Assembly (NCBI GenBank): GCA_037444505.1 | Contig: JBBIMH010000013.1 | Span: forward strand, 51,972 to 115,971 | Direction of reading: 5' to 3' | Source of the DNA: Nitrospirota bacterium | GTDB lineage: Bacteria; Nitrospirota; UBA9217 | DNA length: 64,000 bases | Part shown: piece after piece, positions 10,548-50,499 of the stretch | Position numbering within the stretch: position 1 is the stretch's first letter | How the letters are laid out: every line of letters starts with the position of its first letter | Made by a program: the position numbers and the translations under genes | The notes under the pieces: model-generated | Told to the model about the DNA's origin: nothing | The model's input: the letters and a program-made list of their open reading frames with translations, nothing else | Database searches by the model: none

Positions 10548-11067
10548 AATGTATCCCCCTCCGGCGTCAGAATGGTATAGGGCTATATCCACACAGGAAT
10601 CTTAGCATAAAATCTTTCGAGCAGGTGTATTTTTTAGGCTAATCCAGAGTCCATAAATGAAAAAACCGCCAAAGTGCATGTATATGGAGAATTTTTCCCT
10701 ATATACTGAATCTTTGGCGGCCCGACCGGCGTATAAAACAGAAATCCGCCCCTCTTAGGCGCGGCAATCACAGATTCCTGTTTTATGTAGCCTCGAAGCT
10801 CTGCGTCCCCAGGTTTCCCTGGGTTTGCTCTGAGCAAAGTCAGCAATTGGTTATAATGTAGGCAGACGACGGTAAAAATGTATCATTACTCGGCCCGCTT
10901 GTCAAGTGGTTGAAAGGCGGCAAAATGAAAAGATTGTTCAAGCCTGGGGCGGTGCTCCAAACGGTTTCACCCCCCTCTTTATCGACGCGGCCTAAATTTT
11001 AGGAAGGGTGTTCGTCCCCTGTTGGGCATACCCAGAAGCTGAGCAAAACGGACCGCTCGACTCCAGA

Positions 11068-12803: not shown

Positions 12804-12877
12804 GGTCATGCAAGATACTCGACAGCTACGAATCAGCATGGATGGACGCGGAAATCTTCGGGGACAAGATTGACAAG

Positions 12878-12995
12878 CTCGTAAAAAAGCATTTGCACCG
12901 CCGAGAGCGCCGAGGGCACGGAGAAAAACGTCTATCTTTTGAATGGGCTCTCGGCGCTCTCCGCGATCTCTGCGGTAAATCGAACTTTTTACGAG
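12878..12995. repeat. Palindromic MITE/REP-like intergenic repeat, copy 1
   Basis: ctcgtaaaaaag...caccgcc at the left end and ctctgcggtaaat...ctttttacgag at the right end. Same family as the copies at 38297, 40262 and 40390. Confidence 0.6.
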
Positions 12996-13077
12996 TTCAT
13001 CAATATTCCCAGCCCCAAAGGCCGCTTCTTATCCGTGTTTATCCGTATGCAACAGTGGTAAAAGATTGTTTATCATT

Positions 13078-13818: not shown

Positions 13819-14027
13819 GGGGCAGAGAGCTCTGTTTTTACGCTATGCTCTCTGCTCAATGTCATTTGCCGTCCCTTAAAACTCATGCGAGTTTTCATCA
13901 AAAGCCAGACACCCGCGCATAGAAACATGACGATAATGAAACCAGAGATGCCCATCCATGAAATAAGACGACCGCCTCGGATATAAGGATTCTTTCCCGG
14001 ATGTAGTACAACACGGCTTATTGAATC
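13791..14027 (-). pseudogene. Duplicated 3' fragment of ccsA (CcsA C-terminus remnant)
   Basis: Minus-strand frame encodes ..VVLHPGKNPYIRGGRLISWMGISGFIIVMFLCAGVWLLMK.., against the CcsA C-terminus YLHARLIKGWSGRPVSWMGIAGFVIVMFLYAGVGLLMK. About 75% nucleotide identity to 16815-16950. An in-frame TAA lies upstream and there is no convincing start. Confidence 0.45.
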
Positions 14028-16804: not shown

Positions 16805-17512
16805 CTACGGATAGAACTCATGCGAGCTCTTCATCAAAAGCCCGACTCCCGCATAAAGAAACATGACTATAACGAAGCCCGCTATGCCCATCCAGGAGAC
16901 AGGACGCCCACTCCACCCCTTTATGAGCCTTGCATGAAGATAGAGGCTGTACCATAACCAAACAATAGTCGTCCAGAGCTCCTTGGGTGTCCAGAGCCAG
17001 TAGGTCCCCCAGGCAAGATGCGCCCATATGCCGCCGAATATCATCCCGACCGAGAATATGACATAACCGACCAGGATGAGGCGGTACTGGTTCCGCTCGG
17101 AGTTTTGCTCGTTTCCACAGAGATGCAACAGACCCCAGACAGCGGCGATGCCGAAGAGCGCATATGCTACGAAAGTCAATACGACGTGCAGCTCGAACCA
17201 TAACGTTTTCAAGACCGGCGGCAGCGGAGCCTGCATCTGCGGCGCGTATGCTGAGAACACAAGAAGCGCCAGAATGAGAGGGACGGAGATGTAGGTGAAT
17301 AGATCGCGCCTGCGTCTCCAGGCAAATACTGCATAGACTGCAGCAAGGGCAAAGGTGAGAAAGCCCAAGGTATCATGAAGACCGACAAGAGGTATGCGGC
17401 CGTATTCTACGGCACTTTGTGCGATTGCGACTGCATGCAGTAGAAGTCCGACAACGACCAACCGCGGCCTGTACATCGCGGCGCAGTAGAGAAAGGGAAT
17501 GATTATTTCCAT
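16805..17512 (-). CDS. ccsA: Cytochrome c-type biogenesis protein CcsA/ResC
   Basis: WWD-type motif WAHLAWGTYWLWTPKELW with conserved His residues. Polytopic membrane protein. Confidence 0.8.
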   Translation of the reverse strand: MEIIIPFLYCAAMYRPRLVVVGLLLHAVAIAQSAVEYGRIPLVGLHDTLGFLTFALAAVYAVFAWRRRRDLFTYISVPLILALLVFSAYAPQMQAPLPPVLKTLWFELHVVLTFVAYALFGIAAVWGLLHLCGNEQNSERNQYRLILVGYVIFSVGMIFGGIWAHLAWGTYWLWTPKELWTTIVWLWYSLYLHARLIKGWSGRPVSWMGIAGFVIVMFLYAGVGLLMKSSHEFYP

Positions 17513-18675: not shown

Positions 18676-19170
18676 ATGAGCCGGTTCATCCTTATATCAT
18701 GCATGGCGCTCATGCTCAATGCATGCCCATACTCCATCTCCAAATCTGTAGTTGTCAAGGCGGACACTTCTATCCAATTTGAAAAACTCGTCAGCACCCC
18801 TGATGACTACAAAGGAAAGGTTTTGATTTTGGGCGGCACTATCGTCAGGGCGGCGCAGACCGAGCAGGGGACACTGCTCGAGGTCATACAGAAAGAACTC
18901 GATTACTGGGGGAGGCCGCGAAACACCTATAGAACAGGCGGAAGGTTTCTGGTGCTGATTCGCACGGCCTCCGAAGGCTACGTTTTTAAACAGGAGATCG
19001 TAGTCGCGGGTGAAGTGATAGGGTCCGGCAAGGGCATCGACGGCACCGGGCCGTATCCTGTGCTTCGGCCCTTAGAGATAAGGATATGGCCGGTGGAGCG
19101 CGCTTCTGAAAGGCCTGCCTGGTTGGATCCGCTCTATGACCCTGCCGGCTCCGGCAGGCCAGGCTGGTAA
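18676..19170 (+). CDS. Slp/YeaY-family outer-membrane lipoprotein, paralog 1
   Basis: Lipobox LMLNAC. The DDYKGKVLILGGTIV core is typical of the Slp family. Confidence 0.65.
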   Translation: MSRFILISCMALMLNACPYSISKSVVVKADTSIQFEKLVSTPDDYKGKVLILGGTIVRAAQTEQGTLLEVIQKELDYWGRPRNTYRTGGRFLVLIRTASEGYVFKQEIVVAGEVIGSGKGIDGTGPYPVLRPLEIRIWPVERASERPAWLDPLYDPAGSGRPGW

Positions 19171-19616: not shown

Positions 19617-20105
19617 ATGAAAAAAGCGGTGTGGTACATAGCGTTTATTTCCGCGCTGGTCGCAGCGGCCTGCGCACCGCCGTTTCCGAAAGAGATGCTC
19701 AGAGATGTAGATCGAGGCATATCTTTCAAGGAGTTGAAAGAGGATCCAGAGAGATTCATGGGCAGCATCGTGCTATTGGGCGGTGTGGTAATCGAGACGC
19801 GGAACTCGAAGGAAGGCACATATGTCGAGATACTTCAGCGCAGGCTCGACTCACAGGCCAGGCCTGTGGAATCGGACGAGACAGAGGGCAGATTCATCGT
19901 GTTCACAAAAGAGTTCCTGGATGCCGCCATCTATCACAGGGGCAGGCGGATCACAGTCATAGGAGAGGTTGCAGGCCAGAGGATGCAATTGCTCGGAGAA
20001 GTCCAGTATCGCTATCCATATATAATTGCGAAGGCCGTTCATCTGTGGGAGCCGTATAGGGGGCCGAGCTTCCATATAGGAATAGGTGTGTGGCGCGCGC
20101 TGTAA
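19617..20105 (+). CDS. Slp/YeaY-family outer-membrane lipoprotein, paralog 2
   Basis: Lipobox AAAC. The FMGSIVLLGGVVIE core is homologous to paralogs 1 and 3. Confidence 0.65.
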   Translation: MKKAVWYIAFISALVAAACAPPFPKEMLRDVDRGISFKELKEDPERFMGSIVLLGGVVIETRNSKEGTYVEILQRRLDSQARPVESDETEGRFIVFTKEFLDAAIYHRGRRITVIGEVAGQRMQLLGEVQYRYPYIIAKAVHLWEPYRGPSFHIGIGVWRAL

Positions 20106-23360: not shown

Positions 23361-23912
23361 TCAAAAATATAGATTCAAACCCGCAGCAACTGTTAACACG
23401 TCCCCATCCAGTTTAGGGCTGAGTGTATAAGTCACACCACCCGTCTCTGTTTCGTCATAGCTGATGAAACGATAGATACCGGCAAGATTCAACGCTACTT
23501 GTTGATTGAAGAAATGCTCAAGTCCCACTCCAAGATTAAACCCGCTGCCCGTCAATTTGGCTGAAGGATCTTCTAAGGTATACGCCCCGAGGCCTATCAA
23601 TGCATATACTTGATCCGGATCATTGGTCTGGGAAAAGGATATCCTCGCATCCACAGAAGCACCTGATAAATCGACATCTATATAACCGGTTGCCGAATGT
23701 GTTGACTTGAAAATATTTCCCTCAATTGCTATAGAGCCGAAATTATAACCAACCTTTATTCCAAGACCACCTGCTGAATCGTAATAATCAAAATCCGACC
23801 CTTGAATTGTATTATATACCAGATCAGCCCCCAGATACACCCCCTCCTTCGCCATCGCCGGGGTGGCGATGAGCGCTGCTGCCAGTACCGACAAAACCAG
23901 AAGCTTCTTCAT
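23361..23912 (-). CDS. Small outer-membrane beta-barrel protein (OmpW/OmpA-N-like)
   Basis: Signal peptide MKKLLVLSVLAAALIATPAMA, alternating hydrophobic beta-strands, C-terminal Phe. Confidence 0.7.
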   Translation of the reverse strand: MKKLLVLSVLAAALIATPAMAKEGVYLGADLVYNTIQGSDFDYYDSAGGLGIKVGYNFGSIAIEGNIFKSTHSATGYIDVDLSGASVDARISFSQTNDPDQVYALIGLGAYTLEDPSAKLTGSGFNLGVGLEHFFNQQVALNLAGIYRFISYDETETGGVTYTLSPKLDGDVLTVAAGLNLYF

Positions 23913-24206: not shown

Positions 24207-24764
24207 CTACCACGCATAGGGCGGCGGATAGAGTCTCCATCTCGTGTCCCACCATGGGTCGTACCACCATGGAGGGTATCTGTAGTACCAGGGATATGGA
24301 GGGTACGGGTAATAGTCCCTGTGCTCTTCCCATAGATAGAGCTCGGAGATCTCGAAGACAGGATAGACATATTCCATCTCGTCTATCTTGCCTTTTCTCA
24401 GCTCCACGAAGACGCCCGCAAATGTAATCTCGCGCCCTTTTCTGTAGATGACTGGGTCGAGCAAACCTTTATCCTTTGAATAAAGCGCCAGCACCCTGCC
24501 CTCGTACGGCCTGTCATACCTGAGATAGCCATAGCGGTCGACCTCTACTGCCAATGCCTCGATGAGTGAACCCTTTTCAGTGACCTTCGTCTCCACGATC
24601 ATTCCGCCCAGCACGAAAAGCCTGCCCTTCCATGCCTCCGGCGATTCCCTGAGCTGAGAAAGCGAAACGTCCCGATGTGCCTCCCTCATGGCCTGACTGC
24701 TCAAGACCGGAGCGCAGCCGAAAAGGAGCAGCAGGGCTGATATGAAGTACAGCATCTTCATCAT
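24207..24764 (-). CDS. Slp/YeaY-family lipoprotein, paralog 3, with an aromatic/proline-rich C-terminal tail
   Basis: Lipobox LLFGCAP and core WKGRLFVLGGMIVE. The C-terminus is YYPYPPYPWYYRYPPWWYDPWWDTRWRLYPPPYAW. The start was chosen at MMKML. Confidence 0.6.
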   Translation of the reverse strand: MMKMLYFISALLLLFGCAPVLSSQAMREAHRDVSLSQLRESPEAWKGRLFVLGGMIVETKVTEKGSLIEALAVEVDRYGYLRYDRPYEGRVLALYSKDKGLLDPVIYRKGREITFAGVFVELRKGKIDEMEYVYPVFEISELYLWEEHRDYYPYPPYPWYYRYPPWWYDPWWDTRWRLYPPPYAW

Positions 24765-24863
24765 ATCTATAATTGTACCACCTCGGCTTTTTGCTTGTCC
24801 GGTCGCGACAACGCTTTTATCTTTCAATAAACTGGAAAGGTTTCGTCCTGTGTGACAGCCACG

Positions 24864-36414: not shown

Positions 36415-37026
36415 TCAGTCCCCGTCTGTGATGATCTTTCGCACCCGGAGAAACTCCCTGTTCTTCATCGAATCAAGGGACATTCTCGCGAGCTCGAGCA
36501 CATTTCTGTATATGGCGAAATTCTCCGCAAGCTCCTTGAAGATGTCGCCTTGTGTATACTCCGCCGCCAGACTGTAGGAGCGCCTGCCCTGGAGCTGGTA
36601 GTGCTCGAAAAGGGTGGAACCAGGGACTATGAGGCTTCCGAGTATGAACTCCTTTCCGCGCTTTCTGAACAAGGCCATGGGAAACATTCCGAGCATGAAG
36701 AGGGTATAGTCTCCGATATGCTTGTGCACCTGGAACTCTCGGTCCACCTCGGCGTCCCTGGGGCGCACATCTCCTTCGGCGAGCATATCGGCTATGTCTT
36801 CTAAGTTCCGGCCGAGGGAGTCTTTTATCTTATACAGGTTGTCTGTATGTATGAACTCGCAAAGTATATGCTCCTCGATGTACTCGCCTGCCTCCGGCTT
36901 GGATTGGGGATTCGCGCGCAGCCCGAACTCAAGCGCACGCCTGAAAAGCCTTCTTAGGGGATGTTCCGGTCTGATCTCCGCCCTTCTCACCATAAAACGC
37001 ACCTCCTTGACGAGAAGGTTTTTCAA
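36415..37026 (-). CDS. Hypothetical protein (203 aa)
   Basis: ORF with no recognised family. Start uncertain (MVRRAEI alternative). Confidence 0.35.
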   Translation of the reverse strand: MKNLLVKEVRFMVRRAEIRPEHPLRRLFRRALEFGLRANPQSKPEAGEYIEEHILCEFIHTDNLYKIKDSLGRNLEDIADMLAEGDVRPRDAEVDREFQVHKHIGDYTLFMLGMFPMALFRKRGKEFILGSLIVPGSTLFEHYQLQGRRSYSLAAEYTQGDIFKELAENFAIYRNVLELARMSLDSMKNREFLRVRKIITDGD

Positions 37027-37373
37027 TGGTCATTTTACCGCAAGCAGGCGGCCGTGTCAAACCAGCATGGGTGCATCCAAAGATTGTTTTTCAAGCGCCG
37101 GCCTTGTCTTAATCTGAGCGAATGATCCGACAGATGAGACAACGCTTGATCGCATAGGCCGTGGATAGCTATGTGGATCTATAACCCAATATCGTCCACT
37201 GTATGCGGCTTCATAATTCGACGATCAGTATAGTCACGAAGGCCGGGAAACAGTACCCAAACGGCAACACCTGATCACCATCTGTAAATCGTTAGAGACG
37301 ACGCTGCCTTTGCCCCGCGGGCCGGGTTATTCCAACTTAGAATGGACGTTTTAAGGACACGTACTATGGGAGG

Positions 37374-38213
37374 CTACGACAATTTTCTGATGCCATTCTT
37401 GCAGATCGGCTCTCTCTGCTCCATACGCCGTTTAAGTATCGAAAGATTATGCTGGTACTTATCATTATTAAAGCTCCAAGTAGAACCGTGCCAGAGATGA
37501 AATACAATCGCGAGCCCCCTTACGCTCTTGAGCTGTCCGCCGTAATTCTGCACGCGCACCCCGATATCGTTATCCTCTATGGATCCGTCAACAAAATCTT
37601 CGTCGCAACCGTTAATTGCGATAAACAGGTCTTTGTACAGGCTGAAATTGCAACCCCAAAGACCGTCTTTAGGAATACGGTCTCGATGCATCAGGCGTCT
37701 CAACATGGCGCTTTTGATAGGTATCGCCTCTAATACACGACGTGAATGAAATGGGTCCTTGCTCATGGAGCTTATCAGCAGGCGAAGATTTATGTTATTC
37801 ATTACTTCATCTCTTTGGATAAGTCGGTCGGTCAATGCCTTGCCTATCTCGACACGTCTACCGCACAGAGCGACATCAGGCGAGGAATGCCTGATATGGC
37901 TTGAGATAAAATCCCTGTGCGCCATGCAATCGCCATCTATAAAAATAAGATAATCCCCGGACGCCTGCACGACCGCCTTGTTGATAATATGCGGTTTTCT
38001 AAAACCAATGTCTTCCTGCCACACATGGACTATACCAAAATGTTTCTCTGCGGCCGCCTGCATTTCCTTGACCACTGCCTCAGTTTCCGAACCGCTGCCA
38101 TCATCGGCGATAACGACTTCATTTGGGGGCACACTTTGCTGCATCAATGATTTTATGCATAATTTAAGTGCATGCGGCCGATTATATGTAGGGACAATTA
38201 CGCTTATTTTCAA
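37374..38213 (-). CDS. Family-2 glycosyltransferase
   Basis: ISVIVPTYNRPHAL...IADDGS.. and DGD motif (IFIDGDCM). Noticeably AT-richer than the flanks. Confidence 0.75.
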   Translation of the reverse strand: MKISVIVPTYNRPHALKLCIKSLMQQSVPPNEVVIADDGSGSETEAVVKEMQAAAEKHFGIVHVWQEDIGFRKPHIINKAVVQASGDYLIFIDGDCMAHRDFISSHIRHSSPDVALCGRRVEIGKALTDRLIQRDEVMNNINLRLLISSMSKDPFHSRRVLEAIPIKSAMLRRLMHRDRIPKDGLWGCNFSLYKDLFIAINGCDEDFVDGSIEDNDIGVRVQNYGGQLKSVRGLAIVFHLWHGSTWSFNNDKYQHNLSILKRRMEQREPICKNGIRKLS

Positions 38214-38296
38214 AATACCTCCTCAAAAACCACGATGGCATTTGAGCCTGCAGTAAACAAAAGCATGGAATTATACCCATGTTAATATACGACAAA

Positions 38297-38383
38297 CTCG
38301 TAAAAAAGCTTTTCACCGCAGAGCGCAAAGATTTTGAATAGGTTCTCTCCGCGCACTCAGTGGTAAATTCGGCTTTTTACGAA
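38297..38383. repeat. Palindromic MITE/REP-like intergenic repeat, copy 2
   Basis: ctcgtaaaaaagcttttcaccgcagag ... ggtaaattcggctttttacga. Confidence 0.6.
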
Positions 38384-38588
38384 TGCATCATACATAATAC
38401 CTTTTCAGAGAATGAGACATCATCCATAGTACCGCCGCTTATAGACCTGAATGGTTGAACAAACCCTTTTATCAAAAACCCTTCCCGCATCATAATATGC
38501 CGTGTCGAATTCTCATCGAGGGAAAGGTCTAAAAGCCTTCTACAAGAAAAAAGTGGAGACCAAACAGTCACAGCTGCATTTGAACAAA

Positions 38589-39194
38589 TTATCTTTCACG
38601 CACAATGCCTTTCTCAACCAGAAGGCGCAATACCATATCAGTGGCTTGTTCGATTGACACCGTATTAGTCTCTATAACCAGATCCGGCACATGCGGTTCT
38701 TCGTATAAAGATGATATCCCCGTAAAATTACTGATCTCTCCTTTCAAGGCCTTTCGATAAAGGCCCTTCACATCGCGTCGTTGGCATATATTTATTGGAC
38801 ACTTGCAATATATCTCTAAAAAATCCAGCTCTCCAAGCAAACGACGCACCCATAACCTATCTGAACGAAATGGCGAAATAAACGCGGTCATGATGATCAT
38901 GCCCGCATCGACAAATAGCTTCGCCACCTCTCCAATGCGCCTGATGTTCTCAGTGCGGTCATTATCGGAAAATCCTAAGTCCGAGCACAAGCCATGGCGG
39001 ACATTATCTCCGTCCAATACATAAGTCCTATACCCCATCGAGTAAAGCTTCTCCTCAGTAACATGGGCAATAGTTGATTTCCCTGAACCGGATAAGCCCG
39101 TGAACCACAAACATACGCTTTTGTGACCGTTGATCGCCTCTCTATGGCTACGATTGACTGTGGCATGATGCCAATGAACATTATTATTTTTCAT
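38589..39194 (-). CDS. cysC: Adenylyl-sulfate (APS) kinase
   Basis: WFTGLSGSGKSTIA..LDGDNVRHGL..DNDRTENIRR is canonical CysC. The start was chosen at MKNNNVHWH. Confidence 0.85.
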   Translation of the reverse strand: MKNNNVHWHHATVNRSHREAINGHKSVCLWFTGLSGSGKSTIAHVTEEKLYSMGYRTYVLDGDNVRHGLCSDLGFSDNDRTENIRRIGEVAKLFVDAGMIIMTAFISPFRSDRLWVRRLLGELDFLEIYCKCPINICQRRDVKGLYRKALKGEISNFTGISSLYEEPHVPDLVIETNTVSIEQATDMVLRLLVEKGIVRER

Positions 39195-39262
39195 CACACG
39201 CATAAACTCTCCAACATCTCTTTGGAGTAAGCTAAATATCTGCATTAAACTACCGCATCAAT

Positions 39263-39964
39263 CTATCCTATTGGCACATGAACAATTCCAATCCCATAAC
39301 CCGTCTGATTCGGATCGTGTATAAACTCCTCAGTCTGCACTTCTTTTTTCAGTTCCTGCCAAAAATAATAAACCTGATTTGTTGAAAGATGCTGTTTCTT
39401 TATAATATCATGAAAGGCGATTATCCCCCCGGGGCGCACAAATCTTTTATAAGCGTGATAGTCTGCGGCAACTCCGCTCTCTGAGTGATCGCCGTCGATG
39501 AACAAAAAATCGACGCGCTTTCCGTTTAATTGCATAGCGACCTGCTCTTTCATCGCATCTGTATGCGAATCTCCAGTAAGAAGGGTAACACGACACCCAG
39601 ATGATGGCGGAGGGAATGATTTATACAGAAGAGCAGCAAGGCCCTTGTTTTCAATATCACAGCTGATCACGCGCTCGGTTGCAAGATGCGACCAAATGAA
39701 AAGGGTGCCGCCATAGGCCGTGCCTATTTCCAAAATAGTGCGAGGCTTCAAACTTTCAACAGCCCTGGCCAAGGCTACTATCTCTGAATATATTTGCATT
39801 GTTCTTACCTTAAAATATCCGTGTCCGCCGAATGTCAGCGACATATTTACAATCTCTTCTATCGTCCTCTGTTTGCTGTGAAACTGTTTGAGCTTTCTAA
39901 AAGACTGGAATGCATTGAAGGGCGCCCCTAAAACATATTCTATTTTCCTGACAACCTTACTCAT
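39263..39964 (-). CDS. Class I SAM-dependent methyltransferase (CmcI/TylF-like sugar or small-molecule O-methyltransferase fold)
   Basis: ILEIGTAYGGTLF SAM motif I, DFLFIDGDH, IIAFHDI. Confidence 0.7.
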   Translation of the reverse strand: MSKVVRKIEYVLGAPFNAFQSFRKLKQFHSKQRTIEEIVNMSLTFGGHGYFKVRTMQIYSEIVALARAVESLKPRTILEIGTAYGGTLFIWSHLATERVISCDIENKGLAALLYKSFPPPSSGCRVTLLTGDSHTDAMKEQVAMQLNGKRVDFLFIDGDHSESGVAADYHAYKRFVRPGGIIAFHDIIKKQHLSTNQVYYFWQELKKEVQTEEFIHDPNQTGYGIGIVHVPIG

Positions 39965-40261
39965 TAATTAACCTCTGCAATAATTATCGAAGGTAGTTTA
40001 TTTCATCACGCATTGAACTTCAGAGCAAGTTTTCAGGCCGCCGCTTTAGCGCAACGGGCGGTACTGATTTTGGAAGTCACTTCACATGCGCAATTCAGTG
40101 AGTGTCTTGTCGTACAATCTGCGCGGAGCGTTCTTTTTCACGCCCATTTATATCATATATTTATGCCTATATCAACACGATTTTACTAAGATTAGCACTC
40201 TAAGCAATCTACGTCTCTGTTTTAATCTTCCCTGTCTTTTTCTTATTTCAATCTTGATGAA

Positions 40262-40370
40262 CTCGTAAAAAGTCCCATTTCACCGCAGAGGCCGCCGAGA
40301 TCGCCGAGAAAGGCTCTGAATGAAAACGCATTTTTTCTGCGTGCTCGGCGGTAAGGTTGACTTCTTACGA
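40262..40370. repeat. Palindromic MITE/REP-like intergenic repeat, copy 3 (right end diverged)
   Basis: ctcgtaaaaagtcccatttcaccgcagag...ggcggtaaggttgacttcttacga. Tandem with copy 4, including the flank caatcttgatg. Confidence 0.55.
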
Positions 40371-40389
40371 TGCCATCAATCTTGATGCA

Positions 40390-40496
40390 TTCGTAAAAAA
40401 CCGAATTTACCGCAGAGATCTCAGATAACGCAGAGAGAGCCCATTCACGTTTTTCTCGGCGCCCTCAGCATCATCTGCGGTGAAAAGCTTTTTACG
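40390..40496. repeat. Palindromic MITE/REP-like intergenic repeat, copy 4
   Basis: tcgtaaaaaaccgaatttaccgcagag ... atctgcggtgaaaagctttttacg, near-perfect terminal inverted repeats. Confidence 0.6.
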
Positions 40497-40657
40497 TGTT
40501 AATCGATATTGCATAGAACTCATTTTCCGCGTCACAGATTGTGTATAATACCATGACATCTTTAACAATTATGTTAAGTTATCTTCGACCCGGATGAGAC
40601 CGTTGAACCCTTATCTTTCAATCTCCGCGGGCATTCCGCTTGGCAGAGATACATAGG

Positions 40658-42607
40658 TCAAGCCTCTCCGCCGAATATTTCGATAACCTTTTTGACAAGC
40701 ATCGGAAGCGAGGGGTCGCGCGCTCCCATGATAAGTATGCAGTCGCCCTGTCTCGCGTCATTCTTCAGCATATCGATCAAGCCGTCTCTGTCTTTCACCG
40801 CCTCTGCATTGAACGAGACAGGGGCCAGTCCTTTTATAATGTCGTCGGAAGATATGTCCTTTTGAGCGGTTCCGCCTGCATAGTATATCGGCAGGAGATA
40901 GAGCGAGTCGCCGGGCCGGAGGGCCGAGCGGAAACTACGGATATATTCATCCTTGAGAAACCGCGTAGGGCCGAAGCCGTGGGGCTGATATACAGCGATG
41001 ATCCGGTCGGACAGGCCGCGTGCAGTAGATACGGCTGCGGAGATCTTCGCAGGGTTATGAGCGAAGTCGTCCACTACATAGACCCCGCGCCTCGTTAAAG
41101 CCGTTTCGAATCTCCTCGCCACTCCCTCAAACTTCTTCGTCGCATCCGAAAGCCGCCTATCATCGCAGCCGAGCGCTTCGCATACCGAGAGGGCGGCCAT
41201 GAGATTCTCGAGATTGTGCCTACCCGGAAGGGGAAGCGTGTATTCCACCCCTCCTTTCACGAGTCTCGCGGACAGGGGCATGAGCTCCTCGTAATCAGGC
41301 CTCCAAGATGCCTGTGCGTTTCTGCCGAATCTGATCCGCGCGCGAATAGGGGCGAGGAGAGGCTCGTCCGCGTTTATTACCGTAAGTGACGAGTTTCCTG
41401 CAAGGGTCATGAAGAGCCTCTGGAGCTCATCTACGCCTTTGTGGTCCTTGGATATGTTCAGTATGACGGCTATCTCCGGTCTGTATTTGACTATGCTCCC
41501 GTCGCTCTCATCCGCCTCCACAACCAATAGCTCGGATCCGCCGCTGTAGGCGTTCCCGATAAGCCCCTTTCTCTCGAGCTTCAAGAGGGAAGCACCGCTT
41601 ATGAGCGACGGTGACTTTCCGCATGCATCGAGGAATTCGAATATCATAGCGGTGACAGTCGATTTTCCACTCGTCCCTGCCACTGCTATAGTTTTCTTTG
41701 CAGAGATTAACGCTGAGAGGACATCGGATCTGTGAAGTATTGGTATGCCCCGGCGCCGGGCCTCCAGGATATCGGGATTTCCTTCCTCTATGGCGGTCGA
41801 AATGCAGACAATGTCCGTATATTCATCTATCCCTGAGCCGTCCTGGGGCGCGATGACGCAGCCGAGTGCTTCGAGGCCGCGCCTGATGGATGCAGTATCG
41901 TCGCTGTGATGGAACCTGTCCGAGCCCGAGACCCATATACCCTGGAACCTGAGATACTGGGCGACGGCGCTCATGCCGCTACCGAATACCCCTACAAGAT
42001 GCAGGCTGCGGCATCCATGCCCGGCGACGTTCAACGGCGGAGGGTCTATATATACGAGCGTGCCTTCCGGAACCAGGTCGAAGAGCCGGATGATGTCGTC
42101 ATTTCTCATGCAGACGCAGCCGTGAGACATGGGGGCGCCGATGAGGTCTTCACGACCTGTGCCGTGTATGTAGATATAGCGCTCGTATGAATCCACGCCC
42201 GGGCCTTTGTTTATACCGGGTTCGAGCCCTTCGAGCCGCAGGATGCGGCTCAGAATAAGATTATCTCCATTGTCTCCCGGTTTCCAGTCCTCTCCTGTAT
42301 CTTCCCTGTCCCTGAAGATGCGGCCGGCCGGCGCACCTGCCCCATATTTTTCTATGACCCTATGGATGCCGGGCGGCGTCTTGAGAGAGTTCTCTCTGTT
42401 GCCGATCCCGAGACGCGAGGTCGAACATGAGTACTCATTCAGTATATCCTCCCCTCTGCATAGAAAGAGCCTCTGGCGCTCCACCGAGACGAGGATATAG
42501 TGAGAGCCGCTGTCGGACATGAATCGTTGAAGCCTCTTATGGATTCTCTTGAGCAAGGATCCGTCCATAACCCGCCAAAGGCCTCTCAAAAGGCCTGCCG
42601 TATTCAT
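40658..42607 (-). CDS. Fusion protein: N-terminal L,D-transpeptidase (YkuD) catalytic domain + C-terminal MurC/Mpl-family Mur ligase, no signal peptide
   Basis: Residues about 40-190 carry HYILVSVERQRLFL...YIYIHGTGREDLIGAPMSHGCVCMRNDD (the H..SHGC(V)R L,D-transpeptidase motif). Residues about 200-649 carry GSGMSAVAQYL..VSGSD, P-loop IAVAGTSGKSTV and the Mur ligase middle and C-terminal domains. Confidence 0.8.
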   Translation of the reverse strand: MNTAGLLRGLWRVMDGSLLKRIHKRLQRFMSDSGSHYILVSVERQRLFLCRGEDILNEYSCSTSRLGIGNRENSLKTPPGIHRVIEKYGAGAPAGRIFRDREDTGEDWKPGDNGDNLILSRILRLEGLEPGINKGPGVDSYERYIYIHGTGREDLIGAPMSHGCVCMRNDDIIRLFDLVPEGTLVYIDPPPLNVAGHGCRSLHLVGVFGSGMSAVAQYLRFQGIWVSGSDRFHHSDDTASIRRGLEALGCVIAPQDGSGIDEYTDIVCISTAIEEGNPDILEARRRGIPILHRSDVLSALISAKKTIAVAGTSGKSTVTAMIFEFLDACGKSPSLISGASLLKLERKGLIGNAYSGGSELLVVEADESDGSIVKYRPEIAVILNISKDHKGVDELQRLFMTLAGNSSLTVINADEPLLAPIRARIRFGRNAQASWRPDYEELMPLSARLVKGGVEYTLPLPGRHNLENLMAALSVCEALGCDDRRLSDATKKFEGVARRFETALTRRGVYVVDDFAHNPAKISAAVSTARGLSDRIIAVYQPHGFGPTRFLKDEYIRSFRSALRPGDSLYLLPIYYAGGTAQKDISSDDIIKGLAPVSFNAEAVKDRDGLIDMLKNDARQGDCILIMGARDPSLPMLVKKVIEIFGGEA

Positions 42608-46105: not shown

Positions 46106-47491
46106 ATGACTGAATATAGAACGGAAAAGGATTCAATGGGCGAAGTGAGGGTGCCGCGGGACGCGCTCTATGGTGCGCAGACGCAGAGGGCGGTGGATAA
46201 CTTTCCTGTAAGCGGTATCCGTTTTCCGCGCGTCTTCATCAGGGCACTCGGTCTCATCAAGGCGGCTGCCGCAGAGGCGAACATGGAATTCGGCCTCCTC
46301 AATCCAAAAAACGCGGCGGCGATTAGACAGGCCGCCATGGAGGTCGCGGACGGAAAGTGGGACAAAGAGTTCCCGGTGGATGTATTCCAGACAGGTTCAG
46401 CAACATCCACTAACATGAACGCCAACGAGGTCATTGCTAATCTCGCCTCTCGGATATTGAACTCTCCAGGCGCCCTGCATCCCAATGACCACGTTAACAT
46501 GTCACAGTCGACGAATGATGTTATTCCCTCTGCAGTTCATCTGAGTGCCTGTTTCATCCTTCATGAATCCCTCCTGCCCTCTCTTCTTCACCTGCGAGAT
46601 GCCATGCAGAAGAGGGCGATGGAGCTGATGGACGTAGTTAAGACAGGCCGCACCCACCTGAGGGATGCGATGCCCATCAGGCTCGGCCAGGAGATAAGCG
46701 GTTGGGCCTATCAGACGGCCCAGTCCGTAGAAAGACTGGAATCCTGTCTCCCGAGGCTCTATATGCTCGCCATGGGCGGCACCGCAGTCGGCACAGGTGT
46801 GAATGCGCCGCCTGGTTTCGGAGCAAAGGTCGCTGAGAAACTTTCCAAGCTTACAGGGCTTCCGCTCCGGGAGGCGGAGAATCATTTCGCAGCCCAAGCG
46901 GCCATGGACACCGCAGTAGAGCTTTCAGGCCATCTCAAGACCGCGGCGACCGCTTTTATCAAGATCGCGAACGACATCAGAATCATGAGCAGCGGCCCGG
47001 TTGCCGGGTTCGGAGAAATAGAGCTGCCCGGCCTCCAGCCCGGCTCGAGCATCATGCCAGGAAAGGTGAACCCTGTCATCTGCGAGGTCTTGATGATGGC
47101 GTGCGCCCAGATAATCGGAAATGACACGGTCATCACCGTTTCGAATCAGCACGGCAACTTTGAGCTCAATACCATGCTGCCGGTGATTGCATATAACCTC
47201 ATCCAGTCCATGACACTGCTTGCCAATTCTTCGAGGCTTTTCTCGGACATGGTCGTTTCCGGCTTTACCGCGAACAAGAGCCGCATGGAGTCCCTTCTCG
47301 AGAAGAACCCGATAATAGTCACCGCGCTCGCGCCTGTAATCGGCTATGACAAGGCCGCAGAGATCTCGGGAAAGGCATACAGGGAAGGCCGCTCAGTCAA
47401 AGAGATAGCCGCAGAGACGACGAGCCTGTCCAAGGAGGAGCTGGACAGGATTCTTGATCCCAAAGGCATGACCGGCGGGGAAATTCGGTGA
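46106..47491 (+). CDS. fumC: Class II fumarate hydratase
   Basis: EKDSMGEVRVP, GSSIMPGKVNP signature. Confidence 0.95.
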   Translation: MTEYRTEKDSMGEVRVPRDALYGAQTQRAVDNFPVSGIRFPRVFIRALGLIKAAAAEANMEFGLLNPKNAAAIRQAAMEVADGKWDKEFPVDVFQTGSATSTNMNANEVIANLASRILNSPGALHPNDHVNMSQSTNDVIPSAVHLSACFILHESLLPSLLHLRDAMQKRAMELMDVVKTGRTHLRDAMPIRLGQEISGWAYQTAQSVERLESCLPRLYMLAMGGTAVGTGVNAPPGFGAKVAEKLSKLTGLPLREAENHFAAQAAMDTAVELSGHLKTAATAFIKIANDIRIMSSGPVAGFGEIELPGLQPGSSIMPGKVNPVICEVLMMACAQIIGNDTVITVSNQHGNFELNTMLPVIAYNLIQSMTLLANSSRLFSDMVVSGFTANKSRMESLLEKNPIIVTALAPVIGYDKAAEISGKAYREGRSVKEIAAETTSLSKEELDRILDPKGMTGGEIR

Positions 47492-50168: not shown

Positions 50169-50499
50169 AATACGAAGCGGTGATATACGAGGCTTGAACA
50201 ATCTTGAAACCCGGCCATCTCGAATTCGTAGAAATTATTTCGGCTCCTCACGGATAATGGGGCAAATCATGATTTCAGATAAAGCCTGGCAGGGCATGCC
50301 TTCATGACTTTTAGAACGCGATGAATATTTTATCTTTGTATTGTGAATATATTATCCTCGGCCTCATGGATTAGAGCTGTGTTTGTTATGCTGATTTCCA
50401 CCTTAGGTATCGCTCTAAAAGTCATTCCGGCACACCCTGCCGGCCTGCACTAAAAAATCGTGATGAGCTGAAATTTCATTTACGATAGGTTTTTAAGAG

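What the first reader, a model, noticed from the sequence alone, without database searches (positions are those of the whole stretch)
37374..40496. AT-richer glycan-modification islet bounded by palindromic repeats
The GT2 glycosyltransferase, APS kinase and SAM-dependent methyltransferase lie on one strand. Read by eye, their base composition is clearly lower in GC than the TCA and polyamine genes on either side. APS kinase outside a cys operon suggests PAPS supply for a sulfotransferase, or for sulfated and methylated glycan or lipid synthesis. The block is punctuated by repeat copy 2 (38297-38383) and ends at the tandem copies 3 and 4 plus an AT-rich tract at 40130-40260. This pattern is consistent with horizontal acquisition, or with a mobile cassette that carries envelope-glycan decoration genes.
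Basis: partly seen in the sequence, partly recalled or inferred. Interest (0 to 1): 0.55.

Follow-up and report, generated by a model that had tools for sequence, protein, structure and literature searches.

The report
Low-GC three-gene glycan-tailoring islet
A 3.6-kb AT-rich stretch in an uncultured Nitrospirota genome carries three intact genes (an O-methyltransferase, an APS kinase and a glycosyltransferase) that look like a detached piece of a sulfated-polysaccharide gene cluster, and the palindromic repeats around it are ordinary dispersed repeats of this lineage, not the ends of a mobile cassette.

Summary
Positions 37374-40496 have 44.1% GC against 54.6% and 54.3% in the 10-kb flanks, and this is the single most deviant segment of the window. 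The three minus-strand genes have GC3 of 0.45-0.51 against 0.68 +/- 0.06 for 42 other genes. They are a COMT-fold O-methyltransferase of the CmcI/Methyltransf_24 family, a bona fide APS kinase, and a GT2 resembling the first GT-A domain of chondroitin polymerase. All three are intact and under purifying selection (dN/dS 0.11-0.22).

Closer homologues of the methyltransferase (58-67% identity) sit next to an APS kinase and a CysQ-like gene inside exopolysaccharide loci. Two APS-kinase homologues chosen by similarity alone lie in polysaccharide loci with canonical sulfotransferases. This supports PAPS supply for glycan sulfation. However, the 64-kb window has no sulfotransferase, CysQ, ATP sulfurylase or export gene.

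A relative with about 92% nucleotide identity has the same islet at the same place. There is no integrase, transposase, tRNA gene or att-like repeat. The palindromic repeats are MITE/REP-like elements of this Nitrospirota lineage. One copy lies far from the islet and none lies at the GT2 end, but copy number differs between the two relatives.

Verdict: an ordinary small polysaccharide-tailoring islet of probably foreign origin, acquired before these two lineages split.

The parts
39263..39964 (-). Cation-dependent, COMT-fold SAM O-methyltransferase (Methyltransf_24 / RMNT_CmcI family). It is the first gene of the islet.
   Evidence: PF13578 scores 60.2 bits and PF04989 scores 54.6 bits, both above their cut-offs. 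The AF2 model has pLDDT 91.9, and its best PDB folds are COMT, SafC, TomG and MycE O-methyltransferases. Motif I (LEIGTAYGG) and the FIDGDH/FHD residues are invariant in 31 homologues. dN/dS against the relative is 0.22. A GAGG Shine-Dalgarno sequence lies 9 nt upstream of the start.
38589..39203 (-). Adenylyl-sulfate (APS) kinase, CysC. The ORF is open up to 39245, but the annotated product of 204 aa starts at 39203.
   Evidence: PF01583 scores 222.5 bits. NF003013 scores 295.6 (cut-off 163) and TIGR00455 scores 265.1 (cut-off 138.7). The P-loop GLSGSGKST and the LDGDNVR and FISPF motifs are present. P0243 is 100% identical over 204 aa. dN/dS is 0.11.
37374..38213 (-). Family-2 (GT-A, inverting) glycosyltransferase with a Glyco_transf_7C-like C-terminal part. 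It has a TTG start and a strong GAGGAGG Shine-Dalgarno sequence.
   Evidence: PF00535 scores 77.9 bits and PF02709 scores 29.2 bits. The best solved relative is E. coli K4 chondroitin polymerase, residues 94-328, E 1.9e-18. The ADDGS and IDGD (DXD) motifs are present. dN/dS is 0.16. A 66% homologue sits in a Wzz/Poly_export/O-antigen-polymerase locus.
38286..38390 (.). Palindromic repeat copy 2 (short form), in the 375-nt spacer between the APS kinase and the GT2.
   Evidence: nhmmer E 3.7e-20. Hairpin energy is -34 kcal/mol on the minus strand, z = -4.2. The copy is present in the relative, and both Logan contigs break at it.
40245..40377 (.). Palindromic repeat copy 3. It is absent from the orthologous spacer of the close relative, as a 128-nt indel.
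   Evidence: nhmmer E 4e-32. Alignment A2 shows the indel. Fold z = -2.9.
40374..40505 (.). Palindromic repeat copy 4. It starts about 150 nt downstream of the stop codon of the YkuD-Mur ligase gene and is present in both relatives.
   Evidence: nhmmer E 1.6e-35. Fold z = -3.5 to -3.8. Alignment A2.
12873..13011 (.). Palindromic repeat copy 1. It lies outside the islet, between a ResB-like gene and mnmA.
   Evidence: nhmmer E 1.6e-39.
40147..40175 (-). Candidate sigma-70-type promoter for the methyltransferase-APS kinase pair, inside the 31%-GC tract: TTGATA, 17 nt, TATAAA. This is an inference only.
   Evidence: Read from the sequence. The stretch is identical in the relative L048. The consensus scan did not list it because position 6 of the -10 hexamer is A.
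40658..42607 (-). Native flank: a fusion of an L,D-carboxypeptidase/transpeptidase (YkuD/ElsL-like) domain and a MurC/Mpl-type ligase. GC3 is 0.65.
   Evidence: Homologues at 64-71% identity occur in Nitrospirota MAGs.
36415..37026 (-). Native flank: a conserved hypothetical protein of 203 aa, followed by aconitase and citrate synthase. GC3 is 0.70.
   Evidence: The same order is found in the relative L045.

Best explanation
The islet is a small fragment of a polysaccharide-biosynthesis locus with foreign composition. It sits between housekeeping genes of an uncultured Nitrospirota bacterium and was acquired before this lineage split from a relative with about 92% nucleotide identity. It has two parts.

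(i) A methyltransferase-APS kinase pair. This gene pair recurs in exopolysaccharide and capsule loci. The kinase converts APS to PAPS, the sulfate donor. The COMT-fold enzyme O-methylates a sugar.

(ii) A GT2 that adds a beta-linked hexose or hexosamine.

Together the three genes most likely tailor a surface glycan. The core machinery for that glycan (sulfotransferase, PAP phosphatase, ATP sulfurylase, flippase/polymerase/exporter) would be encoded elsewhere in the genome.

The palindromic repeats are MITE/REP-like elements native to this lineage. They have colonised the islet's unusually long, AT-rich spacers. They may act as hairpin terminators or mRNA stabilisers after the upstream genes, but they are not the ends of the islet.

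Shown: composition, gene identities, intactness and selective constraint, conservation of the locus in the relative, recurrence of the gene pair in EPS loci, and dispersal and copy-number polymorphism of the repeats.

Inferred: foreign origin, glycan sulfation and methylation as the function, the promoter, and any terminator role.
For: Composition:
- GC is 0.441 against 0.546 and 0.543 in the flanks.
- GC3 z-scores are -2.9 to -4.0.
- The islet is the most deviant tetranucleotide window in the 64 kb.

Gene identities and intact catalytic motifs.

Both junctions with housekeeping genes are real. They are reproduced in independently assembled Logan contigs. L048 carries Mur ligase, methyltransferase and APS kinase. 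L045 carries GT2, the 203-aa hypothetical gene, aconitase and citrate synthase. Nucleotide identity is 90-92%.

Purifying selection: dN/dS is 0.11-0.22 in the islet and 0.09-0.12 in the flanks.

The gene pair recurs:
- L049/L050 have methyltransferase, MT11, APS kinase, CysQ.
- L053/L054 have methyltransferase, APS kinase, CysQ.
- L055 has the methyltransferase, then an APS kinase and a CysQ-like gene within 5 kb.
- All of these lie inside MBOAT/AlgX/Poly_export/Wzz loci.

APS-kinase homologues picked by similarity alone:
- L075 has Wzz, Wzy, APS kinase, CysQ, a flippase and three Sulfotransfer_1/3 genes.
- L076 has a sulfotransferase directly upstream of the APS kinase in a GT2/Wzy/DegT locus.

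A GT2 homologue lies in an O-antigen/EPS locus.

Literature precedent exists for PAPS genes embedded in a sulfated-capsule cluster (PMC11766843).

Repeats:
- There are four copies in the window, one of them far from the islet.
- Weaker relatives with the same termini or the same CGCAGAG-type arms occur in other Nitrospirota loci: L020, L026, L041, L058 and L061.
- Copy 3 is a 128-nt indel between the two relatives.
- The Logan contigs break at copy 2.
Against: - No sulfotransferase, CysQ, ATP sulfurylase or export gene is present in the 64-kb window. No pseudogene remnants of them lie in the spacers.
- In a neighbour-joining tree the window's APS kinase sits on a long branch of its own, not inside the EPS-linked group.
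- Foreign origin rests on composition alone. No empty site was found, because every other relative is at most 71% identical at the protein level and has lost synteny on both sides.
- Named GT2 relatives are Nitrospirota at the same identity level as the flanking proteins.
- Nucleotide identity to the relative shows no step at the islet borders.
- None of the related EPS loci examined is AT-rich; their GC is 0.51-0.59. No donor is identified.
- The three-gene combination was seen only in this lineage.
Confidence: 0.55

Rival explanations
1. The three genes are long-resident native genes, not a horizontal acquisition. Their low GC reflects the well-known tendency of surface-polysaccharide genes to stay AT-rich and poorly codon-adapted. 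That tendency arises from diversifying exchange within the lineage, low expression or relaxed codon selection.
For: - The islet is conserved at the same site in the relative with about 92% nucleotide identity, with the same low GC.
- There is no step in identity at the borders.
- Named GT2 homologues are Nitrospirota at 63-66% identity, the same level as the flanking Mur ligase fusion at 64-71%.
- There are no mobility genes and no att sites.
- Another single low-GC envelope gene, an OMP beta-barrel at 23361-23912, exists in the window.
Against: - A GC3 deficit of 0.17-0.23 with no sign of amelioration is large.
- The genes sit alone among TCA and cell-wall housekeeping genes, not in a polysaccharide locus.
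- Named relatives of the methyltransferase and the APS kinase are mostly Pseudomonadota.
- The homologous EPS loci examined have 51-59% GC, so low GC is not intrinsic to these families.
Confidence: 0.25
2. The methyltransferase-APS kinase pair is a mobile cassette bracketed by MITE-like repeats (copy 2 on one side, copies 3 and 4 on the other). It would be mobilised in trans like a composite element, in the manner of integron mobilisation units.
For: - Repeat copies flank exactly this gene pair.
- Three of the four copies in the window lie in islet spacers, which hold only 16% of the intergenic DNA (P = 0.015 by copies, 0.07 by sites).
- Copy number at one border differs between close relatives, so the repeats are or were recently active.
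Against: - The methyltransferase-APS kinase adjacency is old. It occurs in unrelated EPS loci without these repeats.
- The pair was found in only one genomic context; its 90%-identity cluster has two members and both have the same neighbours.
- No target-site duplication surrounds the composite.
- The GT2 shares the foreign composition but lies outside the bracket.
- Repeats of this family occur at unrelated sites and in other Nitrospirota genomes.
- There is no match to known plasmids or phages beyond the conserved cysC core.
Confidence: 0.06
3. The APS kinase is simply the cell's assimilatory cysC, making PAPS for a PAPS reductase. Its position beside glycan genes would then be fortuitous.
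For: - No sulfotransferase or CysQ lies in the window.
- APS kinase is highly conserved, and the protein passes generic cysC models.
- It does not nest in the EPS-linked group in the neighbour-joining tree.
Against: - No sat/cysDN, cysH or sulfite reductase lies nearby.
- It is 17 nt downstream of, and apparently co-transcribed with, a methyltransferase whose nearest homologues are themselves followed by an APS kinase in EPS loci.
- Its foreign composition is shared with the two glycan genes.
Confidence: 0.15

Closest known systems
PAPS-supply genes embedded in sulfated capsule or EPS gene clusters, for example the Cobetia marina KMM 1449 CPS cluster (cysNC-cysD-cysQ plus sulfotransferases; PMC11766843) and the synechan xss cluster of Synechocystis (PMC8205485)
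   Same: A dedicated APS-kinase function sits next to glycosyltransferase and glycan-modifying genes. The homologous loci L075 and L076 have the full arrangement with sulfotransferases, and L075 also has CysQ.
   Different: Only three genes are present here. There is no sulfotransferase, CysQ, ATP sulfurylase, flippase, polymerase or exporter in 64 kb. The genes are isolated among TCA and cell-wall housekeeping genes.
Rhizobial nodPQ/nodH (a second, dedicated PAPS pathway for sulfating a glycan signal; cited from my own knowledge)
   Same: It would be an extra copy of a sulfate-activation enzyme, placed with glycan-tailoring genes on horizontally mobile DNA of atypical composition.
   Different: NodPQ includes ATP sulfurylase, and NodH is the adjacent sulfotransferase. 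Neither function is present here. Plasmid matches are limited to the conserved cysC/cysN core at 66-74% nucleotide identity.
Low-GC O-antigen and capsule gene clusters, a classic form of compositionally atypical surface-polysaccharide DNA (cited from my own knowledge)
   Same: GC is well below the genome average. The content is a glycosyltransferase plus sugar-modifying enzymes. Classical mobility genes are absent.
   Different: The islet is a three-gene satellite, not a complete wzx/wzy or ABC-type locus.
Small palindromic dispersed repeats and MITEs such as Neisseria Correia elements, enterobacterial ERIC and pneumococcal RUP (cited from my own knowledge)
   Same: The elements are 105-135 nt, non-coding and intergenic. 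They are whole-length imperfect palindromes with conserved termini (TTGATGaaCTCGTAAAAAG ... CTTTTTACGa..CATCAA). They occur in several dispersed copies and show insertion/deletion polymorphism between close strains.
   Different: There is no sequence relationship to those families and no Rfam hit. The arms are built of CGCAGAG-like heptads. The target-site duplication is unresolved and the partner transposase is unknown.
MITE-bracketed mobilisation units, for example integron mobilisation units (cited from my own knowledge)
   Same: Two MITE-like copies bracket a gene pair.
   Different: There is no flanking duplication, no second genomic context, and repeats of the same family occur elsewhere.

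Membership tests
Adenylyl-sulfate kinase (CysC; PF01583, TIGR00455, NF003013) | The profile HMM score is above the curated cut-off. | tested here: met
   PF01583 scores 222.5 bits (cut-off 21.1). NF003013 scores 295.6 (cut-off 163). TIGR00455 scores 265.1 (cut-off 138.7).
Adenylyl-sulfate kinase (CysC; PF01583, TIGR00455, NF003013) | The P-loop and the APS-binding motifs are present. | tested here: met
   GLSGSGKST, LDGDNVR and AFISPF were read in the translation.
Adenylyl-sulfate kinase (CysC; PF01583, TIGR00455, NF003013) | The protein has APS-to-PAPS kinase activity. | not testable with these tools
   An enzyme assay is needed.
Glycosyltransferase family 2 (GT-A fold, inverting) | The protein matches PF00535 above its cut-off and has the DXD and nucleotide-binding acidic motifs. 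| tested here: met
   PF00535 scores 77.9 bits (cut-off 23.3). ADDGS and IDGD are present. The best PDB match is the K4 chondroitin polymerase domain, E 1.9e-18.
Glycosyltransferase family 2 (GT-A fold, inverting) | The protein can be assigned to a named equivalog (EpsD, PglI, HpsN and others). | tested here: not met
   The best NCBIfam match is EpsD at 91.9 bits against a cut-off of 370. Donor and acceptor specificity remain unknown.
Cation-dependent class I SAM O-methyltransferase (Methyltransf_24 / RMNT_CmcI) | The profile HMM score is above the cut-off. | tested here: met
   PF13578 scores 60.2 (cut-off 26.3). PF04989 scores 54.6 (cut-off 23.2).
Cation-dependent class I SAM O-methyltransferase (Methyltransf_24 / RMNT_CmcI) | The protein has a COMT-like Rossmann fold with the glycine-rich SAM motif and metal-binding acidic residues. 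| tested here: met
   The AF2 model has pLDDT 91.9 and pTM 0.90. The top 50 PDB folds are all SAM-dependent methyltransferases, nearly all COMT-type O-methyltransferases, and none is a sulfotransferase. E79-I80-G81-T82, G86, D157-G158-D159-H160 and H185-D186 are invariant in 31 homologues.
Cation-dependent class I SAM O-methyltransferase (Methyltransf_24 / RMNT_CmcI) | The protein is an equivalog of rhamnosyl O-methyltransferase or NanM sugar O-methyltransferase. | tested here: not met
   NF045824 scores 19.1 (cut-off 400). TIGR04371 scores 24.8 (cut-off 44).
Horizontally acquired genomic islet | Base composition and codon usage are atypical. | tested here: met
Horizontally acquired genomic islet | The islet is absent from related genomes at the same site (an empty site exists). 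| tested here: inconclusive
   The islet is present in the only close relative, at about 92% nucleotide identity. It is absent next to the Mur ligase homologue in 44 loci and next to the 203-aa homologue in 14 loci, but those loci also lack the other flank.
Horizontally acquired genomic islet | Mobility hallmarks are present: integrase or transposase, a tRNA target, flanking direct repeats. | tested here: not met
   The window has no tRNA gene. No att-like direct repeats surround the islet. The spacers hold no recognisable ORFs and no remnants. No plasmid or phage match was found beyond the cysC core.
Horizontally acquired genomic islet | The best hits are phylogenetically discordant with the flanks. 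| tested here: inconclusive
   Named GT2 hits are Nitrospirota. Named methyltransferase hits are Thiobacillaceae, Thiobacillus and Pseudomonadota, plus one Nitrospirota. Named APS-kinase hits are mostly Gammaproteobacteria, plus one Thermodesulfovibrionales. All are at 55-69% identity. The neighbour-joining tree is unresolved.
MITE / small palindromic dispersed repeat | The element is short and non-coding, has terminal inverted repeats and occurs in multiple dispersed copies. | tested here: met
   Four copies of 105-135 nt are in the window, at two distant regions. The termini are conserved, and the same termini occur in L041 around a different interior.
MITE / small palindromic dispersed repeat | Related genomes differ by insertion or deletion of a copy. 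| tested here: met
   Copy 3 is a 128-nt indel relative to L048.
MITE / small palindromic dispersed repeat | A target-site duplication and a cognate transposase can be identified. | tested here: inconclusive
   The junction sequence TCAATCTTGATG is duplicated around copy 3, but it overlaps the element's own terminal palindrome. No transposase is encoded in the window.
Sulfated-polysaccharide biosynthesis locus | A PAPS-dependent sulfotransferase (PF00685, PF13469 or PF03567) is encoded in the locus. | tested here: not met
   No Pfam hit was found in any sizeable ORF of the window. tblastn with the three L075 sulfotransferases found nothing at E below 0.2.
Sulfated-polysaccharide biosynthesis locus | Polymerisation and export genes (Wzx/Wzy/Wza/Wzc or ABC type) are present. 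| tested here: not met
   None is present in the window.

The most novel reading that the evidence does not exclude
The methyltransferase-APS kinase(-CysQ) module might mark an unrecognised class of O-methylated, sulfated exopolysaccharides. These would be made by uncultured Nitrospirota and neighbouring lineages using MBOAT/AlgX-type loci. In the three methyltransferase-linked loci examined, no canonical sulfotransferase lies within the 10-12 kb retrieved. A non-canonical sulfotransferase could therefore be involved. One candidate is the unannotated 275-297-aa 'LFTDDDDWYHPQ' family, which lies just upstream of the module in L053 and occurs as three tandem copies in L046. Under this reading, the window's islet would be a portable 'PAPS + methyl' tailoring kit that plugs into a host EPS pathway.
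Probability: 0.08. Interest if true: 0.6.

Novelty: new member of a known kind. Interest (0 to 1): 0.3.

Why it matters
Sulfated bacterial exopolysaccharides are reported for relatively few bacteria (PMC8205485, PMC11766843). A dedicated APS kinase tied to glycan-tailoring genes hints that this Nitrospirota lineage decorates a surface glycan with sulfate and O-methyl groups. Such decoration could affect aggregation, metal binding and phage or grazer recognition in sediments and groundwater. As it stands, this is a modest annotation-level insight. The islet is small and lacks the sulfotransferase, and its origin cannot be pinned down. The repeat family is a useful marker of genome plasticity in this lineage, and it causes assembly breaks, but it belongs to a well-known kind of element.

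Tried and rejected
1. Empty-site test. The genome-contig scan with the Mur ligase fusion gave 44 loci at 25-71% identity. The metagenome-contig scan with the 203-aa flank gave 14 loci at 58-66% identity. In none was the opposite flank adjacent, so neither presence nor absence of the islet at this site can be read from them.

2. Exact look-ups of the window's GT2 and APS-kinase ORFs failed, probably because the deposited gene calls use different start codons. The source contig was identified only through 100%-identical cluster representatives.

3. Pseudogene remnants of CysQ, sulfotransferases or other EPS genes were sought in the three long spacers and across the window. None was found.

4. 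Rfam found nothing in 36900-40800 even at E <= 1. The repeats and the methyltransferase leader are not known RNA families.

5. The promoter/terminator consensus scan gave counts no higher than in shuffled sequence.

6. I tested whether the islet was exchanged more recently than its flanks. dS is lower in the islet (0.14-0.16 against 0.20-0.33). However, the sliding nucleotide-identity profile shows no step at the borders, so I do not claim this.

7. I tested whether the APS kinase belongs to a distinct EPS-linked clade. The neighbour-joining tree puts it on a long separate branch, so the question is unresolved.

8. I tested whether the CmcI-like protein could be a disguised sulfotransferase. 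This is rejected: it has a confident COMT fold and an intact SAM motif.

9. The apparent fifth repeat copy at 47355-47382 is a chance match inside the fumarase gene.

10. The islet has no similarity to plasmids or phages beyond the cysC core.

Full report
**Observation.**

The GC dip is real and sharp. The finding span 37374-40496 has 44.1% GC. The 10 kb on either side have 54.6% and 54.3%. The lowest-GC 3.1-kb window of the whole 64 kb starts at 37451.

The dip is also visible at the codon level. GC3 is 0.51, 0.48 and 0.45 for the three genes, against 0.679 +/- 0.057 for 42 other genes (z = -2.9 to -4.0). Codon-usage distance and tetranucleotide usage single out the same segment. Only one other gene in the window is comparably AT-rich, an outer-membrane beta-barrel gene at 23361-23912.

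**Gene identities.**

- 39263-39964(-) is a Methyltransf_24/CmcI-type methyltransferase.
- 38589-39203(-) is an APS kinase. It passes the curated cut-offs of NF003013 and TIGR00455 and has all catalytic motifs.
- 37374-38213(-) is a GT2. Its best solved relative is residues 94-328 of E. coli K4 chondroitin polymerase.

An AlphaFold model of the methyltransferase (pLDDT 91.9) matches cation-dependent COMT-type O-methyltransferases only.

**Flanks and source organism.**

The flanks are housekeeping genes.
- On the low-coordinate side lie a 203-aa conserved hypothetical gene, aconitase, citrate synthase, an aldehyde dehydrogenase and a TPP enzyme.
- On the high-coordinate side lie a YkuD-Mur ligase fusion, DUF2301, DJ-1, a radical SAM gene, fumarase and succinate dehydrogenase.

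The Mur ligase fusion places the organism among uncultured Nitrospirota, with best species-representative hits at 64-71% protein identity. The methyltransferase and APS kinase are 100% identical to proteins on an NCBI contig of 166,269 nt.

**The close relative.**

One independently assembled close relative exists, in Logan assemblies of SRR24079446.
- Contig L048 carries Mur ligase, methyltransferase and APS kinase.
- Contig L045 carries GT2, the 203-aa gene, aconitase, citrate synthase and further genes.
- Both are 90-92% identical to the window at the nucleotide level.

Three conclusions follow. Both junctions of the islet with housekeeping DNA are real and not a binning or assembly chimera. 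The islet predates the split of the two lineages. It has kept its low GC; the first kilobase of L045 has 46-47% GC.

All three genes are under purifying selection, with dN/dS of 0.11-0.22 against 0.09-0.12 for the flanks. Their dS is somewhat lower than in the flanks. However, a sliding identity profile shows no step at the islet borders, so I do not infer a separate, later transfer.

**More distant relatives.**

These are uninformative. In 44 genome loci with a Mur ligase homologue and 14 metagenome loci with a homologue of the 203-aa gene, neither the islet genes nor the opposite flank are adjacent. No empty site could be obtained.

**Where the genes come from.**

The best evidence is gene context.
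- Methyltransferase homologues at 58-67% identity lie inside exopolysaccharide loci. These loci encode MBOAT and AlgX-like O-acetylation genes, nucleotide-sugar genes, Poly_export, Wzz and CpsB.
- In three different lineages the methyltransferase homologue is followed by, or lies within 5 kb of, an APS kinase and an inositol-monophosphatase-family (CysQ-like) gene.
- Two APS-kinase homologues chosen only for similarity and contig length (67-68% identity) lie in polysaccharide loci with canonical Sulfotransfer_1/3 genes. One has three sulfotransferases plus CysQ. In the other, a sulfotransferase lies directly upstream of the kinase.
- A 66% GT2 homologue sits in a large Wzz/Poly_export/O-antigen-polymerase locus of a Nitrospirota MAG.
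- A more distant methyltransferase homologue (55%, Thiobacillaceae) is in a small glycan locus without an APS kinase.

The methyltransferase-APS kinase adjacency is therefore a recurrent module of polysaccharide loci. PAPS genes embedded in a sulfated-capsule cluster have precedent in Cobetia marina (PMC11766843).

There are three caveats.
- The trio of methyltransferase, APS kinase and GT2 was seen only in this lineage.
- The window's APS kinase sits on a long branch of its own in a neighbour-joining tree.
- The window contains no sulfotransferase, CysQ, ATP sulfurylase or export gene, and no decayed remnants of them.

The pathway therefore cannot be closed from this sequence.

**The repeats.**

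The four copies are at 12873-13011, 38286-38390, 40245-40377 and 40374-40505. They form one family of 105-135-nt whole-length imperfect palindromes. The termini are conserved (TTGATGaaCTCGTAAAAAG ... CTTTTTACGa..CATCAA) and the arms are built of CGCAGAG-like heptads.

They are not specific to the islet.
- Copy 1 lies between a ResB-like gene and mnmA, 24 kb away.
- No copy lies at the GT2 end of the islet.
- Related elements occur in other Nitrospirota loci that have nothing to do with the islet (L020, L026, L041, L058, L061). L041 shares the termini but has a different interior.

They are dynamic. The relative has one copy between the Mur ligase gene and the methyltransferase where the window has two, a clean 128-nt indel. 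Both Logan contigs end at copy 2, as expected for a multi-copy repeat.

Three of the four copies lie in islet spacers, which hold 16% of the window's intergenic DNA. This gives P = 0.015 counting copies and 0.07 counting sites. The enrichment is mild, and the islet's unusually long AT-rich spacers are enough to explain it.

No tRNA gene, integrase, transposase or att-like direct repeat is present, and there is no plasmid or phage similarity beyond the cysC core. The 'mobile cassette bounded by repeats' reading is therefore not supported. The narrower idea that copies 2 and 3/4 bracket the methyltransferase-APS kinase pair as a composite unit is not excluded, but nothing else speaks for it.

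**Likely mechanism (inferred).**

A promoter-like TTGATA-17-TATAAA lies in the 31%-GC tract (minus strand, 40175-40147) and is identical in the relative. It would drive the methyltransferase and the APS kinase, which are 17 nt apart (the full ORF) or 59 nt apart (from the annotated start at 39203). Copy 2, and a weak terminator-like hairpin after it, separate this pair from the GT2, which has its own strong Shine-Dalgarno sequence.

The kinase would raise PAPS supply for a sulfotransferase encoded elsewhere. The COMT-fold enzyme would O-methylate a sugar, and the GT2 would add a beta-linked residue. The overall effect would be tailoring of a surface glycan.

**Verdict.**

The islet is a small, compositionally foreign but established glycan-tailoring gene set of a known kind. 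It sits in spacers colonised by lineage-specific MITE/REP-like repeats. Interest is modest.

Noticed in passing
window 10783-10839 (-): A c-di-GMP-I riboswitch match lies just above Rfam's gathering score (36.8 against 35 bits). It is upstream of a run of CarboxypepD_reg/PEGA/TPR/PD40-repeat envelope genes at 10592-4708.
   Followed up: no
window 23361-23912 (-): A second isolated low-GC gene (GC 0.455, GC3 0.424, the lowest in the window) encodes an OMP beta-barrel protein. It may be another small foreign or fast-evolving envelope gene.
   Followed up: partly
window 40658-42607 (-): This gene fuses a YkuD/ElsL-like L,D-carboxypeptidase domain with a MurC/Mpl-type ligase, which looks like a one-protein peptidoglycan-recycling unit. 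It is conserved at 64-71% identity in many Nitrospirota MAGs and at 51-59% in MAGs labelled Fibrobacter, Fibrobacteraceae and Chitinispirillia.
   Followed up: partly
window 50283-50446: A different palindromic element (36-nt arms, 78% complementary) lies between the sdhA-like and sdhB-like genes. It carries a GTCATTCCGGC motif like the interior of the L041 repeat.
   Followed up: no
L046 3641-6238; L053 9062-9955: An unannotated family of 273-297-aa proteins with a conserved 'LFTDDDDWYHPQ' motif has no Pfam match. It occurs as three tandem paralogues in a Nitrospirota EPS locus and as one copy directly upstream of a methyltransferase-APS kinase-CysQ module.
   Followed up: partly
window 36415-37026 (-): A conserved 203-aa protein has no Pfam or NCBIfam match. 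Homologues at 58-66% identity occur in 14 metagenome loci. Here and in the close relative it lies upstream of aconitase and citrate synthase.
   Followed up: partly
window 18676-19170, 19617-20105, 24207-24827: Three Slp-family outer-membrane lipoprotein paralogues lie within 6 kb of one another.
   Followed up: no
window 13894-13973 and 16830-16909: An 80-nt direct repeat of 80% identity links the ResB-like region and the CcsA-like (Cytochrom_C_asm) gene. It probably reflects paralogous coding sequence rather than a mobile repeat.
   Followed up: no
L049 2994-3695 and 8001-8702; L053 7078-7770 and 10001-10699: The homologous EPS loci carry two CmcI-like methyltransferase paralogues each. The window's protein is most similar to the copy that is adjacent to the APS kinase.
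   Followed up: partly
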